This document shows positions 30,713 through 33,420 of a stretch of 64,000 nt of DNA, one piece after another (position 1 is the first letter of the stretch; every line of letters starts with the position of its first letter). The position numbers were made by a program, and so were the translations under genes. This DNA is from an uncultured Gammaproteobacteria bacterium (lineage in GTDB: Bacteria > Patescibacteriota > Patescibacteriia > Magasanikbacterales > GWA2-37-8): the NCBI GenBank assembly GCA_964407865.1, contig CAYOXC010000001.1, positions 1,103 to 65,102 on the forward strand, in the 5' to 3' direction. The notes beneath the pieces are model-generated. The model worked only from the letters and a program-made list of their open reading frames with translations, did not search any database and was not told the origin of the DNA.

Positions 30713-31717
30713 TTGATTATGAATTTCAAGAAAAATTTTATGGTACCGTTTATAATTATTGTCGGGACAATAGTGATTGTTTGGATTTTATGCTGTTTGC
30801 CTTTGCGCGGTAATCAGGATCAAATTTTTGGCGTTAGTTTTAACCCAGAATACGCTGGATATCTTGGTTATGATTCAATGGATGTGTTTCAGGCCATTCT
30901 CGAAGATTGGCATTTTCGCTATATCCGCCTTTCAGCCCAATGGGATGAGATTGAAGTTAGTCCTAATGTATATGATTTTAAAATATTAAATGACTTGATG
31001 GATGAGGCGGCAAAATACGACGCAAAGGTAGTGCTTGTAGTTGGACAAAAAATTCCACGCTGGCCAGAATGCCACCCGCCAACTTGGGCAGATACTTTGT
31101 CTGACGCTGAGTATCGTGCATCGGTTAAGCGGCTTATCAAAGCAACAATAAATCAGTTTAAAGACCATCCAGCTTTGGAAATGTGGCAAATCGAAAACGA
31201 GCCACTGTTTGCGTTTGGAGAATGCCGTTCTTTTGATAAAGCCATGTTAGCTTCTGAAATAAGCATGGTTAGAGAGTTGGATCCTAATCATAAAATAATG
31301 ATAACGGATAGCGGTGAATTAAGCTCGTGGCGTAATACCGCTAAGGCAGGGGATATTTTTGGCACCACGCTATATCGCGTAGTTTGGCATAAAAGCTTTG
31401 GTTATTTGGCTTATGATTTTATTCCGCCGGTTTTTTATCGCTTTAAACTTTGGCTTACCGGTCAAACTAAGGAAAATTCTATGGTCTCTGAACTTCAAGC
31501 TGAGCCTTGGATACCCGATCATGATATAAATAAATTAGATCTGGATGAGCAGTATCGGTCAATGAATCTTGAGCGTTTACAAAAAAATGTTAAATTTTCT
31601 CAACGCGTCGGTTTTTCACGGGCATATCTTTGGGGGGCTGAATGGTGGTATTGGATAAATGAAAAACATGGAGTATCGGATTTTATAGAATATGCGAAGA
31701 CGCTAAAAAAGGAATGA
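30713..31717 (+). CDS. Membrane-anchored TIM-barrel glycoside-hydrolase-like protein
   Basis: N-terminal transmembrane helix, a WQIENEP motif (the NEP catalytic acid/base motif of clan GH-A), and aromatic-rich barrel strands. Confidence 0.55.
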   Translation: MIMNFKKNFMVPFIIIVGTIVIVWILCCLPLRGNQDQIFGVSFNPEYAGYLGYDSMDVFQAILEDWHFRYIRLSAQWDEIEVSPNVYDFKILNDLMDEAAKYDAKVVLVVGQKIPRWPECHPPTWADTLSDAEYRASVKRLIKATINQFKDHPALEMWQIENEPLFAFGECRSFDKAMLASEISMVRELDPNHKIMITDSGELSSWRNTAKAGDIFGTTLYRVVWHKSFGYLAYDFIPPVFYRFKLWLTGQTKENSMVSELQAEPWIPDHDINKLDLDEQYRSMNLERLQKNVKFSQRVGFSRAYLWGAEWWYWINEKHGVSDFIEYAKTLKKE

Positions 31718-31720
31718 TTG

Positions 31721-31749
31721 TTGACACAATGGGTTTTATCAGATATTAT
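31721..31749 (+). promoter_or_regulatory. Canonical promoter driving the tRNA-Val locus
   Basis: TTGACA, then a 17-nt spacer, then TATTAT. The -10 element ends 12 nt before the tRNA-like 5' fragment. Confidence 0.55.
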
Positions 31750-31761
31750 GCGCTATAAATT

Positions 31762-31836
31762 GCACGCTTAGCTCAGCTGGTTACCCGCCCGTACCGAACG
31801 GGTACGTTCGGGCGGGGAGCACTTCATTATGAGGAG
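31762..31836 (+). pseudogene. tRNA-Val-like 5' fragment with a 33-nt GC-rich hairpin inserted in the D-loop
   Basis: GCACGCT-TA-GCTC-AGCTGGTTA-[CCCGCCCGTACCGAACGGGTACGTTCGGGCGGG]-GAGC-A-CTTCATTATGAGGAG. It is near-identical to the 5' third of the intact tRNA-Val (GCACGCC-TA-GCTC-AGCTGGTTA-GAGC). It has no T-arm. Confidence 0.45.
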
Positions 31837-31918
31837 TTTGACAGTTTTGAAGAAGCTAGAAAAAGAGAAAAATATTTTAAAACAGCTGCTGTAAGAAGGT
31901 ATATTAAAAATTTAAATA

Positions 31919-31992
31919 AGCACGCCTAGCTCAGCTGGTTAGAGCACCTCGTTTACACCGAGGGGGTCAGGGGTTCGAATCCCTTGGCGTGC
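31919..31992 (+). tRNA. tRNA-Val (anticodon TAC)
   Basis: Hand-folded cloverleaf: acceptor GCACGCC/GGCGTGC, D-arm GCTC-AGCTGGTTA-GAGC, anticodon arm CCTCG-TTTACAC-CGAGG, T-arm AGGGG-TTCGAAT-CCCTT, discriminator A. CCA is not encoded. Confidence 0.9.
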
Positions 31993-32165
31993 ACAATTGC
32001 GACCCAATAGTTTGGGTCGCAAAGGGATTCGAACGCCGGAGCGATGTCGTGCGACGCAGAAGGGCGAGCACGACCCTGCCTGCCGGCAGGCAGGCGCGAG
32101 GTGGTGGCCAGGCCGAGCGAGTGGAAGTGAGCGAGAGCCGAGGCCGAATCCCTTGGCGTGCACAA
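31993..32165 (+). other. Structured GC-rich tail of the tRNA-Val locus
   Basis: Components in order: a perfect hairpin GCGACCCAA-TAG-TTGGGTCGC; an inverted copy of the tRNA T-arm (AAAGGGATTCGAACGCC); about 105 nt at roughly 65% GC with internal stems (GTCGTGC...GCACGAC, CCTGCCTGCC/GGCAGGCAGG); then a 22-nt direct repeat of the tRNA 3' end. Confidence 0.5.
32144..32165 (+). repeat. 22-nt direct repeat of the tRNA-Val 3' end (att-core-like)
   Basis: CGAATCCCTTGGCGTGCACAAT is identical to 31975-31996. Confidence 0.6.
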
Positions 32166-32174
32166 TAAAAACAC

Positions 32175-32210
32175 GATCCTTTCTTAATCTGATTTAGGAA
32201 AGGGTTTTTT
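32175..32210 (+). terminator. Rho-independent terminator closing the tRNA-Val unit
   Basis: CCTTTCT...AGGAAAGG stem followed by TTTTTTATTT. Confidence 0.5.
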
Positions 32211-32244: not shown

Positions 32245-33420
32245 ATGAATAACATAAAAAATCGGCCTGTTGTTTTACATCAGGGTGTATATAAAAGAAC
32301 AGCTTCAACTTCAGAGGCGGTTTTTATGATTACAGGCATGACTATTGGCGCCGGGGTACTTGGTTTGCCATATGTTATAGCCAGGAGCGGACTTGCCATA
32401 GGTCTCATCATGATCCTTGTTTGGGGCTTGGTTATGTTGCTTTTAAACTTGATGTTAGGCGAAATTGCCGTGCGCACTCGTAACAATTTTCAACTGCCGG
32501 GTTTTGCTGGAAAGTATTTAGGGCCATGGGCAAAAGGTATTCTTAGCATAATTATAATTTTTAGCGGTTTTGGCGCACTACTAGCTTATGTGATTGGCGA
32601 GGGTCAGGTTTTATCCGAGATATTTGGAGGAATGCCAGCTTGGTGGAGTGTGTTTTTCTGGACAATCGGCAGTATAATTATTTGGTTTGGGTTACAGACG
32701 GCCAAGTTGTTTGAAAGAATTTTGAGTTTATCCGTCATTATTTTAATTGCCGGTCTATCGTTATTTTTGTTGCCTAAAATTAATCCGGTTAATTTAGCCT
32801 ATACTGATTTAACCAATTTCTTTTTACCTTTTGGAGTAATTTTATTTGCCCTTCATGCTAGTCCATCCATTGCTGAAGCGCACGCTCTTTTGCCGGGCTC
32901 TGAAAAACGTTTCAGAAAAGCGATAATCATAGGAACTTTGATACCGGTAGCGGTCTATTTACTTTTTTGTTTGGCTGTTGTTGGATATTTTGGATTAAAC
33001 ACTAGTGAAGTGGCTACGGTTGGATTGGGCCATGCTTTTGGTCCGGGAGTGGTAATTTTAGCCAATGTTTTTGCATCTTTTGCTATGGCAACTTGTTTTA
33101 TGGGGCTTGGTATTGCGTTAAAGCAGAGTTTTGTTTGGGATCACAAAATTAGCCCGCATTTAGCTGAATTTACAGTCGTTGTTGTTCCAATCCTATTGTT
33201 TCTTTTTGGTTTTAGAAGCTTTGTGAAAGTTATTGATTTGGTCGGGGGTTTATTTATCGGTTTAGAGTCATTGATGATTGTTTTAATTTGTTATAAAGCT
33301 AGAAAAGCCGGCGATCTAACCGCTGACAGATATGGATTAAAAAATTTTTGGCTTATCGCTGTGCCGGTAATAGCTTTTTTTCTTACCGCTACAATATATT
33401 CAGTGATTCGCTTTTTTTAA
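32245..33420 (+). CDS. Amino-acid permease (HAAAP / aromatic amino-acid transporter-like)
   Basis: Eleven transmembrane helices and the N-terminal signature ITGMTIGAGVLGLPYVIARSG. Confidence 0.65.
   Translation: MNNIKNRPVVLHQGVYKRTASTSEAVFMITGMTIGAGVLGLPYVIARSGLAIGLIMILVWGLVMLLLNLMLGEIAVRTRNNFQLPGFAGKYLGPWAKGILSIIIIFSGFGALLAYVIGEGQVLSEIFGGMPAWWSVFFWTIGSIIIWFGLQTAKLFERILSLSVIILIAGLSLFLLPKINPVNLAYTDLTNFFLPFGVILFALHASPSIAEAHALLPGSEKRFRKAIIIGTLIPVAVYLLFCLAVVGYFGLNTSEVATVGLGHAFGPGVVILANVFASFAMATCFMGLGIALKQSFVWDHKISPHLAEFTVVVVPILLFLFGFRSFVKVIDLVGGLFIGLESLMIVLICYKARKAGDLTADRYGLKNFWLIAVPVIAFFLTATIYSVIRFF

What the first reader, a model, noticed from the sequence alone, without database searches (positions are those of the whole stretch)
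31721..32210. tRNA-Val nested inside fragments of a second tRNA-Val copy, with GC-rich hairpin insertions, all within one promoter-terminator unit
A perfect TTGACA-17-TATTAT promoter fires about 5 nt before a tRNA-Val-like 5' third: acceptor strand, then a D-arm whose D-loop carries a 33-nt GC-rich perfect hairpin (CCCGCCCG...CGGGCGGG). Then comes an AT-rich spacer and the intact tRNA-Val(TAC). Downstream of it lie a perfect hairpin, an inverted copy of the T-arm, about 105 nt of roughly 65% GC structured sequence, and a 22-nt exact direct repeat of the tRNA 3' end (CGAATCCCTTGGCGTGCACAAT). A terminator closes the unit. Three readings are possible. (a) An intact tRNA plus a 3'-end direct repeat about 150 bp away is the signature of tRNA-targeted site-specific integration and excision, with an att core and a GC-rich foreign remnant. 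(b) It could be a composite precursor RNA in which the tRNA's T-arm can be sequestered by the downstream inverted copy. (c) It could be decay after tandem duplication. The same architecture recurs at the tRNA-Asp locus, which argues against pure chance.
Basis: seen in the sequence. Interest (0 to 1): 0.75.

Follow-up and report, generated by a model that had tools for sequence, protein, structure and literature searches.

The report
tRNA gene scarred by homing-nuclease elements
An intact tRNA-Val gene in a Patescibacteria (CPR) genome lies between partial copies of itself, and these look like scars of a tiny GIY-YIG nuclease gene and its GC-rich palindromes, a selfish-DNA system that turns up at tRNA genes in many Patescibacteria and Bacteroidota and that I could not find described.

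Summary
An intact tRNA-Val(UAC) at 31920-31994 sits in one promoter-to-terminator unit. Upstream is a copy of its first 27 nt, split by a 33-nt GC palindrome. Downstream, behind about 150 nt of GC-rich hairpins, is a 22-nt exact copy of its 3' end. tRNA-Asp has the same layout.

The spacer before the tRNA is the last 34 codons of a GIY-YIG nuclease gene. Its stop codon is U8-A9-G10 of the tRNA. Eighty metagenomic relatives of that stump include the undecayed form: an ~80-aa GIY-YIG gene, co-oriented, wedged between an intact tRNA and hairpin-interrupted partial copies of the same tRNA. These often form tandem arrays, including in a Segetibacter isolate. The window's palindromes recur there in both orientations.

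Orthologous loci in relatives are plain, 5'-only or 3'-only. I therefore read the locus as the scar of a tRNA-gene-targeting homing-endonuclease and palindrome system, not as integrase att sites. The closest precedent is phage SegB.

The 3' cassette is better conserved than the neighbouring coding DNA. This remains unexplained.

The parts
31721..31749 (+). Sigma-70-type promoter TTGACA-17-TATTAT of the whole unit
   Evidence: 11/12 consensus. Orthologous loci carry a TTGAC-type promoter in the same place.
31762..31783 (+). 5' partial copy of tRNA-Val, positions 1-21
   Evidence: 21/22 identical to 31920-31941.
31784..31816 (.). 33-nt GC palindrome CCCGCCCG...CGGGCGGG inserted in the D-loop of the partial copy (A21|G22)
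   Evidence: It matches hairpins in L056 and L030 at 32/33 in the opposite orientation. This palindrome family lies next to GIY-YIG ORFs in 36/80 loci, against 0 in shuffles.
31817..31822 (+). tRNA-Val positions 22-27 (GAGCAC), the end of the 5' partial copy
   Evidence: Read directly from the sequence.
31823..31929 (+). Stump of a GIY-YIG nuclease gene: the last ~34 codons, ...HYEEFDSFEEARKREKYFKTAAVRRYIKNLNKHA. The stop codon TAG is tRNA nt 8-10.
   Evidence: It is 68% identical over 28 aa to bona fide PF01541 domains. The N-terminal catalytic half is missing.
31920..31994 (+). Intact tRNA-Val(UAC), the presumed functional product
31997..32022 (+). Perfect 11-bp hairpin H1, the ancestral tRNA-Val terminator stem, here without its T-run
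   Evidence: A homologous hairpin plus T-run ends the plain loci L096, L097 and L101. Four compensatory pairs against L095.
32018..32144 (+). Non-coding GC-rich 3' cassette. It opens with an inverted or T-arm-like segment (AAGGGATTCGAAC) and holds several hairpins.
   Evidence: Homologous cassettes occur in L095 and L102.
32075..32094 (.). 20-nt perfect palindrome CCTGCCTGCCGGCAGGCAGG, a window-specific insertion into the cassette
   Evidence: Absent from the aligned cassettes of L095 and L102. The identical 20-mer lies next to GIY-YIG ORFs in L039, L044, L084 and L087.
32145..32166 (+). Exact 22-nt direct repeat of the tRNA-Val T-loop-to-3' end (C56 to +4)
32175..32206 (+). Terminator-like hairpin plus T-run closing the unit
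53122..53545 (-). tRNA-Asp unit with the same plan. It has a 12/12 promoter (53545-53517). Outer tRNA-Asp pieces lie at 53495-53483, 53440-53431, 53273-53259 and 53168-53151. GC hairpins lie at 53482-53445, 53309-53273 and 53252-53177. The intact tRNA-Asp is at 53414-53340.

Best explanation
The locus is one tRNA-Val transcription unit, and its only working product is probably the intact inner tRNA. The flanking tRNA pieces are partial duplicates left by selfish DNA that targets tRNA genes. That DNA consists of a family of very small (~80 aa) free-standing GIY-YIG endonuclease genes and the GC-rich palindromes that travel with them.

On the 5' side, a GIY-YIG gene once sat between a copy of tRNA positions 1-27 and the intact gene. 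It read out into the tRNA and used U8-A9-G10 as its stop codon. It has since lost its catalytic N-terminal two-thirds. The orphan 5' copy was hit in its D-loop by a 33-nt palindrome.

On the 3' side, the old terminator hairpin is followed by a non-coding structured cassette. The cassette ends in a fresh copy of the tRNA's T-loop-to-3' end and was itself hit by a 20-nt palindrome.

Inferred mechanism, by analogy with phage SegB: the nuclease cuts conserved tRNA-gene motifs (D-loop, anticodon loop, T-loop). Recombinational repair then inserts or amplifies the nuclease gene and duplicates part of the tRNA, so one intact copy always survives. Redundant copies are then free to collect palindromes and to decay. 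The inner tRNA must be released from the long precursor by RNase P and a 3' endonuclease. This processing is inferred, not shown.
For: Shown in the window:
- An intact tRNA plus colinear fragments at two loci.
- The spacer is homologous to the C-terminus of PF01541 GIY-YIG domains.

Shown in related sequence, using 80 metagenomic loci that encode relatives of the stump:
- 52 have a tRNA immediately beside the ORF, and every tRNA called is co-oriented with it.
- Of the 52 loci with a tRNA beside the ORF, about 40 also carry colinear fragments of that same tRNA on the other side of the ORF. These fragments are split by 27-130-nt inserts at the D-loop or the T-loop.
- In 8 of the 22 loci where an intact tRNA directly follows the ORF, the stop codon is tRNA nt 8-10, as in the window.
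- 36/80 loci carry CCYGCCYG...CRGRCRGG hairpins near the ORF, against 0 in shuffles.
- The hairpins occur in both orientations: 8 one way, 9 the other, 22 symmetric or undetermined.
- The window's two palindromes are near-identical (32/33) and identical (20/20) to hairpins in other loci.
- Tandem arrays of ORF plus hairpin-disrupted tRNA occur in a cultured Segetibacter genome.

Shown at orthologous loci in relatives. Neighbouring permease 72-84% identical; GH 66% identical where compared, in L092:
- Plain tRNA-Val: L097, L101.
- 5' fragment plus a different hairpin: L092, L096.
- 3' cassette only: L095.
- 3' cassette present, 5' side not assembled: L102.

Precedent: SegB, a GIY-YIG homing endonuclease, cuts inside tRNA genes at a T-loop motif. 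It drives tandem repeats of tRNA plus truncated segB by recombination (PMC13096335).
Against: - No nuclease activity or target has been shown for this ORF family. The ~80-aa proteins have no DNA-binding domain.
- No intact ORF was found at this exact locus in any relative.
- The 3' cassette contains no ORF remnant. Its link to the GIY-YIG system rests only on its architecture and on the inserted 20-nt palindrome.
- The cassette is 83% identical between the window and L102, while the adjacent coding gene is 68% identical. That does not fit a passive relic.
- The boundaries of the duplicated tRNA segment vary from 0 to 26 nt of leader, so there is no simple target-site duplication.
- It is unclear why the palindromes sit almost only at tRNA loops.
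Confidence: 0.68

Rival explanations
1. The 3' cassette, possibly together with the outer tRNA pieces, is a functional structured RNA co-transcribed with tRNA-Val. It might be a processing or stability element. It might be a T-arm mimic or sequestrator that competes with the tRNA's own T-arm. It might pair with the 5' fragment into a split tRNA-like molecule once the inner tRNA has been cut out.
For: - The cassette is conserved in three lineages. RNAalifold predicts 51 pairs, 13 of them kept through changes on both sides.
- It is more conserved than the neighbouring coding DNA: 83% against 68%.
- Its terminal repeat is 100% identical to each lineage's own tRNA 3' end, even though the tRNA alleles differ.
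- The whole unit folds well below its shuffles, z = -7.6, and the outer acceptor strands pair in the MFE structure.
- The outer tRNA-Asp acceptor stem differs from the inner one by two swapped base pairs and still pairs.
Against: - Distribution is patchy. The cassette is absent from equally close relatives L092/93, L096, L097/98, L100 and L101.
- No Rfam family matches.
- The palindromes occur in both orientations, and one is a lineage-specific insertion into the cassette.
- The covariation rests on only three sequences, and palindromic DNA pairs by construction.
- There are no expression data.
Confidence: 0.15
2. These are classical tRNA-targeted site-specific integration scars. On this reading, the 22-nt repeat is an att core left by an integrase-bearing island that has since been almost entirely deleted.
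For: An intact tRNA followed by an exact 3'-end direct repeat is the canonical attL/attR picture. L102 has two such repeats in series.
Against: - There is no integrase within 3 kb on either side.
- Only 147 bp lie between the repeats.
- The core is not found in IMG/VR.
- This reading does not explain the 5' fragment, the GIY-YIG stump or the shared palindromes.
- The ancestral terminator hairpin H1 sits between the tRNA and the cassette.
- The same architecture elsewhere carries GIY-YIG ORFs, not integrases.
Confidence: 0.07
3. The locus reflects plain tandem duplication or triplication of the tRNA gene by slippage, followed by random decay, with no mobile element involved.
For: Tandem tRNA copies are common, and the fragments are colinear and co-oriented.
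Against: - A nuclease gene stump sits exactly between the copies.
- The GC-rich inserts belong to sequence families shared with unrelated genomes.
- Two different tRNA loci in one 64-kb window show the same pattern.
- Different relatives show different states of the locus.
Confidence: 0.05

Closest known systems
SegB, the free-standing GIY-YIG homing endonuclease of T-even phages (PMC13096335; earlier work on the T4 tRNA region)
   Same: - It is a GIY-YIG nuclease gene embedded among tRNA genes.
- It cuts inside tRNA genes at a T-loop motif, RAWTSGAAC.
- Recombination between the tRNA 5' region and the 3' end of the nuclease gene yields tandem repeats of tRNA plus C-terminally altered nuclease. 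That junction is the one seen here.
   Different: - SegB is phage-borne. By the paper's account it acts on sites far from its own gene. The window's family is cellular (Patescibacteria, Bacteroidota) and is only the ~80-aa catalytic domain.
- No relative of the window's family was found in IMG/VR.
- The window's family leaves partial tRNA copies riddled with GC palindromes.
- No activity has been shown for it.
Free-standing homing endonuclease genes that duplicate part of the host gene in fungal and protist organelle genomes (the Allomyces atp6 case is from my own recollection; host-gene fragment duplications are described in e.g. PMC7315562 and PMC6506933)
   Same: A nuclease ORF is inserted into an essential gene. 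The gene is kept intact by a duplicated segment, and the displaced fragment remains alongside as a pseudogene piece. GC-rich mobile hairpins co-occur in the same genomes.
   Different: In those cases the targets are protein genes in organelles. Here the targets are bacterial tRNA genes. In some loci the tRNA itself supplies the ORF's start codon, and more often its stop codon.
Group I introns in Patescibacteria tRNA genes (PMC13011429)
   Same: The host phylum is the same. Selfish insertions sit in the anticodon-loop region of tRNA genes, including tRNA-Asp. Standard tRNA finders do not detect the interrupted genes.
   Different: - There is no ribozyme: Rfam gives no RF00028 hit.
- The tRNA is rescued by duplication rather than by splicing.
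- The inserts are 20-65-nt palindromes or an ORF.
REP/MITE-like palindromic repeats and Rickettsia palindromic elements
   Same: They are short GC-rich palindromes in an AT-rich genome. They are multi-copy across genomes, occur in both orientations, and are sometimes inserted in frame in protein genes (LPAP...RQAG in HsdS).
   Different: - They associate with a GIY-YIG ORF that can sit inside the inverted repeat, not with a RAYT or another transposase.
- They show a strong preference for tRNA loops.
- No clear target-site duplication is seen.
tRNA-gene att sites of integrase-bearing islands
   Same: An intact tRNA is followed by a direct repeat of its 3' end.
   Different: There is no integrase, the 'island' is 147 bp, and there are additional 5' fragments and a nuclease stump.

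Membership tests
GIY-YIG nuclease domain (PF01541), applied to the ORF stump at 31823-31929 | Scores above Pfam's gathering threshold | tested here: not met
   The 56-aa open frame gives no Pfam, NCBIfam or PHROGs hit. It is too short. Full-length relatives score 54-56 bits against a cut-off of 22.6.
GIY-YIG nuclease domain (PF01541), applied to the ORF stump at 31823-31929 | Significant sequence homology to bona fide members | tested here: met
   phmmer against 1.84 billion representatives gives E = 3e-4 to P0001, which itself scores PF01541 at 5.5e-30. The stump is 68% identical to it over 28 aa. tblastn with L031 gives E = 4e-7.
GIY-YIG nuclease domain (PF01541), applied to the ORF stump at 31823-31929 | N-terminal GIY and YIG motifs and the catalytic Arg/His | tested here: not met
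   Only the C-terminal ~34 residues remain (alignment A7). The stump cannot be an active enzyme.
Free-standing homing endonuclease gene (SegB-like behaviour) | Nuclease ORF outside any intron or intein, next to its presumed target gene | tested here: met
   In 52/80 related loci the ORF abuts a co-oriented tRNA, and Rfam finds no intron there.
Free-standing homing endonuclease gene (SegB-like behaviour) | Presence/absence polymorphism at the same site among relatives | tested here: inconclusive
   Plain loci (L097, L101) and scarred loci (window, L092, L096, L095, L102) both exist. No relative with an intact ORF at this locus was found.
Free-standing homing endonuclease gene (SegB-like behaviour) | The enzyme cleaves the ORF-less allele, and the flanks are co-converted | not testable with these tools
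   This needs biochemistry or crosses. One suggestive point: the window's tRNA-Val allele differs at 19/75 positions from the allele shared by four relatives.
Integrase-type tRNA att site | Tyrosine or serine integrase gene adjacent to the repeats | tested here: not met
   The genes within 3 kb are FolD, EamA, a GH-like protein, a permease, a 582-aa protein and HTH_17. The rest of the window was not scanned.
Integrase-type tRNA att site | The direct repeat covers the tRNA 3' end | tested here: met
   A 22-nt exact repeat.
Integrase-type tRNA att site | An attP copy of the core on a virus or plasmid | tested here: not met
   No exact match to the 19-nt core in IMG/VR. Plasmids and other genomes were not searched.
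Group I intron in a tRNA gene | Ribozyme core detectable (RF00028) and an insertion in the anticodon loop after a U | tested here: not met
   Rfam finds only tRNA and tmRNA in the window, at both the gathering and the E-value threshold. The inserts are 20-113 nt.
MITE/REP-like palindromic repeat | Short palindrome, many copies, either orientation | tested here: met
   41 strict copies in 81 loci (the 80 related loci plus the window's Val locus), against 0 in shuffles. Orientations are 8, 9 and 22 undetermined.
MITE/REP-like palindromic repeat | Defined target-site duplication and a cognate transposase | tested here: inconclusive
   The flanks are mostly T-N | G-A with no consistent duplication. 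The only associated gene is the GIY-YIG ORF, which in some loci lies inside the inverted repeat.
Archaeal-type split, permuted or BHB-intron tRNA | No intact copy present, and pieces joined through bulge-helix-bulge processing | tested here: not met
   An intact tRNA is present. The organism is bacterial: tmRNA at 54871-55270, and its relatives are Patescibacteria. BHB motifs were not searched for.

The most novel reading that the evidence does not exclude
The window may be a fossil of an undescribed class of cellular mobile element. The element would be a minimal, catalytic-domain-only GIY-YIG gene, accompanied by GC palindromes that can enclose it. It would home into tRNA genes, and into a few conserved protein motifs, without needing an intron, because it rebuilds the target by duplicating part of it and, in some loci, borrows its start or stop codon from the tRNA. 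It would build tandem arrays and drive replacement of tRNA alleles between lineages of Patescibacteria and Bacteroidota. The conserved 3' cassette would be a non-coding rider of this system that regenerates a copy of the host tRNA's 3' end wherever it lands.
Probability: 0.4. Interest if true: 0.75.

Novelty: new variant of a known kind. Interest (0 to 1): 0.62.

Why it matters
**Mechanism.** If confirmed, the system shows how a homing endonuclease can colonise an essential RNA gene with no self-splicing intron. It does so by leaving the host one rebuilt copy. This would extend the recently shown SegB-tRNA amplification from phages to bacterial chromosomes.

**Annotation.** It would explain the puzzling tRNA fragments, 'missing' or hairpin-interrupted tRNAs, contig breaks inside tRNA genes and GC-rich islands seen in CPR and Bacteroidota assemblies.

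**Evolution.** It offers a route for tRNA allele replacement between lineages.

**Testability.** A cultured Segetibacter strain carrying an array makes the system experimentally tractable.

Tried and rejected
**Searches that found nothing**
- Direct family scans of the 56-aa stump (Pfam, NCBIfam, PHROGs, PDB) gave nothing. The word-indexed protein search also found nothing. Only the exhaustive phmmer search worked.
- Rfam on the locus and on ten related loci gave only tRNA.
- A GTDB search with the upstream GH protein gave only 35-40% relatives, with no tRNA nearby.
- IMG/VR contains neither the 19-nt core nor any relative of the ORF.
- No full-length GIY-YIG gene lies elsewhere in the window. 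No further copies of the Val or Asp GC inserts lie in the window.

**Ideas considered and dropped**
- Group I intron remnant: no ribozyme, and the inserts are too short.
- Archaeal BHB, split or permuted tRNA, including a permuted reading of the minus strand around H1: the host is bacterial, an intact tRNA is present, and no D-arm is found.
- Fixed-length target-site duplication: the repeat boundary varies from 0 to 26 nt upstream of tRNA position 1.
- Palindromes as strand-specific RNA motifs: both orientations occur.
- A shared element between the Val and Asp GC inserts: only 7-9-nt motifs such as GAGCGAG are shared, which is not significant.
- The in-frame reading of the tRNA fragment as part of the ORF (IARLAQL aligned to ERL..QH): treated as coincidence.
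Full report
**1. What is there**

The window is 41% GC. It comes from a Patescibacteria (CPR) genome. Homologues of the downstream permease are annotated Patescibacteria or Candidatus Magasanikbacteria. The nearest GTDB relatives of the upstream GH-like gene are Patescibacteria MAGs. A tmRNA is present.

Between the GH-like gene (stop at 31717) and the permease (start at 32245) lies a single unit.
- Promoter TTGACA-17-TATTAT at 31721-31749.
- A 21/22 copy of the first 22 nt of tRNA-Val at 31762-31783.
- A 33-nt palindrome CCCGCCCG...CGGGCGGG at 31784-31816.
- GAGCAC, which is tRNA positions 22-27.
- A 100-nt AT-rich stretch.
- The intact tRNA-Val(UAC) at 31920-31994.
- A perfect 11-bp hairpin at 31997-32022.
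- A segment complementary to the T-arm at 32018-32040.
- About 105 nt of 69% GC sequence.
- An exact 22-nt repeat of the tRNA's T-loop-to-3' end at 32145-32166, unique in the window.
- A terminator at 32175-32206.

Three independent assemblies are identical across the locus, so it is not an assembly artefact. One of them breaks inside the repeated D-loop sequence.

The tRNA-Asp locus (53545-53122, minus strand) has the same plan.
- It has a 12/12 consensus promoter.
- Four colinear pieces of a second tRNA-Asp surround the intact gene.
- There are three GC hairpins.
- The outer acceptor stem is GGGCTGG/CCAGCCC. It differs from the inner stem GGGTCGG/CCGACCC by two swapped pairs and still pairs.

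**2. The spacer is a nuclease gene stump**

In frame with the tRNA, 31825-31926 reads HYEEFDSFEEARKREKYFKTAAVRRYIKNLNKHA. The stop codon TAG is tRNA nucleotides 8-10.

Profile libraries and the word-indexed search found nothing. An exhaustive phmmer search found three hits. The best hit carries two PF01541 GIY-YIG domains (5.5e-30). The stump is 68% identical to the C-terminal 28 residues of one of them.

Aligned with full-length relatives, the stump covers only the last ~34 of ~80 residues. The catalytic N-terminal part is gone. It is the only GIY-YIG-like sequence in the window.

**3. The undecayed form exists elsewhere, and it is a pattern**

I searched JGI metagenomes with a small alignment of the stump and its hits. 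This returned 80 loci.
- ARAGORN finds a tRNA in 60 of them. In 52 it lies 3-51 nt after the ORF, or ends 85-223 nt before the matched C-terminal segment, which is just before the ORF start. Every tRNA called is co-oriented with the ORF.
- In most of these loci, the other side of the ORF carries colinear fragments of that same tRNA. The fragments are split by 27-130-nt inserts.
- Typical layouts:
  - L016, L031, L056: [tRNA 1-17/21][GC hairpin][to position 30-33][ORF][intact tRNA].
  - L054, L073: [intact tRNA][ORF][second tRNA copy with a D-loop hairpin].
  - L015, L029: [intact tRNA][ORF][3' part with a T-loop hairpin].
- In L018 the ORF's ATG is bases 32-34 of the anticodon loop.
- In 8 of 22 loci where an intact tRNA follows the ORF, the stop codon is U8-A9-G10. 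The same is true of the window, and of L054 and L073 where the following tRNA copy is hairpin-interrupted.
- Tandem arrays occur. The clearest is in the cultured Segetibacter sp. 3557_3: an intact tRNA-Arg(CCT), then 376-nt repeats of ORF plus hairpin-disrupted tRNA 3' part.
- The subfamily found with the L054 ORF has more than 1200 members, all PF01541. Those that carry names are from Bacteroidota.

**4. The GC inserts are a shared palindrome family**

A strict pattern, CCYGCCYG...CRGRCRGG, occurs near the ORF in 36/80 loci and never in shuffles.
- It sits at recurrent places in the redundant tRNA copy: A21|G22 or G18|G19 of the D-loop, A9|G10, C56|N57 of the T-loop, and the variable loop.
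- It occurs in both orientations.
- The window's 33-mer matches the L056 and L030 hairpins at 32/33 in reverse orientation.
- The window's 20-mer CCTGCCTGCCGGCAGGCAGG (32075-32094) is identical to palindromes beside GIY-YIG ORFs in four loci.
- Where the ORF is not at a tRNA, it can lie inside such an inverted repeat. It is then inserted in frame in type I restriction-modification genes (translated as LPAP...RQAG), or in the GGAGF motif of an epimerase gene with a duplicated 5' gene fragment.

Palindromes with long loops (L018, L023, L082) look like intermediates between ORF-bearing repeats and tight hairpins. That step is inference.

**5. The orthologous locus in relatives**

Using permease homologues, I recovered the same neighbourhood (FolD-EamA-GH-...-permease) from relatives whose permease is 72-84% identical.

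| Locus | State |
|---|---|
| L097/98, L101 | Plain tRNA-Val: promoter, tRNA, hairpin H1 plus T-run |
| L092/93, L096 | 5' fragment plus one or two different GC hairpins, then a 14-31-nt spacer, then the tRNA; no ORF left |
| L095 | No 5' fragment; a 3' cassette homologous to the window's |
| L102 | Contig starts in the D-loop; carries the window's tRNA allele, the cassette, and two successive 3' repeats |
| L100 | Contig also starts in the D-loop; a third tRNA allele; no cassette |

Three points follow.
- H1 in the window is the old terminator stem with its T-run lost.
- Four relatives share a nearly identical tRNA-Val. The window's allele differs from it at 19 of 75 positions, all in stems and all compensatory. 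This suggests allele replacement rather than drift, which is an inference.
- The locus is very dynamic, and the plain state exists.

**6. What does not fit a simple relic**

The 3' cassette has conserved motifs: GGATTCGAACGSCGGAGC, GGTGGCCAGGC and AGCCGAGGC. It also has variable, compensating hairpins. RNAalifold predicts 51 pairs, 13 with double changes, from three sequences.

Between the window and L102 the cassette is 83% identical over aligned positions. The adjacent permease coding DNA is 68% identical. In each lineage the terminal repeat is identical to that lineage's own tRNA 3' end.

The cassette is therefore one of three things:
- a mobile cassette that regenerates the repeat from its target;
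- a sequence kept uniform by gene conversion;
- a functional RNA.

Its patchy distribution favours the first, but I cannot decide between them. The 20-nt palindrome is a later, window-specific insertion into the cassette.

**7. Mechanism**

Shown:
- the anatomy;
- the homology of the stump;
- the recurrent ORF-tRNA-fragment-palindrome association;
- the variable states among relatives.

Inferred:
- the nuclease cuts conserved tRNA-gene motifs;
- recombinational repair inserts or amplifies the ORF together with a duplicated tRNA segment, so one intact copy remains;
- redundant copies collect palindromes;
- the ORF decays.

The inference leans on phage SegB. SegB is a GIY-YIG enzyme that cuts tRNA genes at RAWTSGAAC, which is the T-loop on the bottom strand. 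It drives uvsX/uvsY-dependent tandem repeats of tRNA plus truncated segB, through microhomology between the tRNA 5' end and the segB 3' end (PMC13096335). That is the same junction I see.

The repeat boundaries vary, which fits recombination better than a transposase-type staggered cut.

**8. Novelty**

Full-text searches found nothing describing small GIY-YIG genes nested between tRNA copies in bacterial chromosomes, or these palindromes.

The nearest work is:
- SegB in phages;
- homing-endonuclease-linked gene-fragment duplications in organelles;
- group I introns in Patescibacteria tRNAs (PMC13011429).

I rate this a new variant of a known kind.

The instance in the window is a decayed scar. 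Its main value is as a pointer to the wider system and to the unexplained 3' cassette.

Noticed in passing
window 53328-53348 and 53408-53428 (minus-strand tRNA-Asp): A 21-nt, 95% complementary inverted repeat. The acceptor stem of the intact tRNA-Asp is extended by 14 nt of AT-rich leader-trailer pairing. It looks like a processing stem, or like the arms of an element carrying the tRNA.
   Followed up: partly
window 53252-53177 (minus strand): The long hairpin in the outer tRNA-Asp T-arm contains an AT palindrome (AAAAAGACAAAC/GTTTGTCTTTTT). It is flanked by a 9-nt direct repeat, TGAGCGAAC, which looks like a small insertion with a target duplication.
   Followed up: no
L095 4233-4365, L096 3850-3985, L097 4075-4250: A conserved ~130-nt structured element lies between the GH gene and the tRNA-Val promoter. 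Its long closing stem (for example AGGGCGTGTCAGACATTTGTT...AACAAAAATCTGACACGCCCT) shows compensatory differences between relatives. The element is absent from the window, L092 and L101.
   Followed up: no
P0001; L062 about 1340-1625; L085 about 990-1270; L063: GIY-YIG modules are inserted in frame in type I restriction-modification specificity or methylase genes. Their flanking inverted repeats are translated as LPAP...RQAG. P0001 carries two such modules.
   Followed up: partly
L067 60-440: A GIY-YIG ORF inside the inverted repeat CCTGCCCGCATCGCCAGCGAGCC...GGCTCGCGTGGCGGGCGGG is inserted in the GGAGF Rossmann motif of an epimerase gene. A 12-codon 5' gene fragment lies upstream and a complete gene downstream. 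This is the same rescue-by-duplication logic as at the tRNAs.
   Followed up: partly
L047, L055, L069, L077, L080/L083: A second inverted-repeat family, CCCCGTGAGATA...TATCTCACGGGG, encloses GIY-YIG ORFs. The right arm encodes the C-terminal YLTG plus the stop codon. Solo hairpins of this type occur nearby. The window's Asp-locus hairpins share the CCCCG...CGGGG ends.
   Followed up: partly
window 31920-31994 compared with L092, L095, L096, L097 and L101: The tRNA-Val allele in the window (and in L102) differs at 19/75 positions from the allele shared almost unchanged by relatives of similar protein divergence. All the differences are compensatory stem changes. L100 has a third allele. This suggests xenologous replacement of the tRNA gene.
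   Followed up: partly
L003, L100, L102, L103 (contig starts): Several independent assemblies break at the same place inside the tRNA-Val D-loop (GGTTAGAGC). This is as expected if a 5' partial copy upstream confuses assemblers, and it may be a practical marker for such loci.
   Followed up: no
L038, L014, L050, L034, L078, L021, L046: Tandem arrays of GIY-YIG ORFs are present. In L038 there are four copies with a ~367-nt period. In L046 the repeated unit is a tRNA-Arg 5' half carrying two palindromes, followed by the ORF.
   Followed up: partly
L095 4642-4902; L100 125-367; L101 3207-3584: Extra small genes lie beside the tRNA-Val locus in relatives. These are an 86-aa GC-rich ORF, an 80-aa ORF with several paired cysteines, and a 23S_rRNA_IVP/bAvd-like gene. 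They again mark the site as a hot spot for insertions.
   Followed up: no
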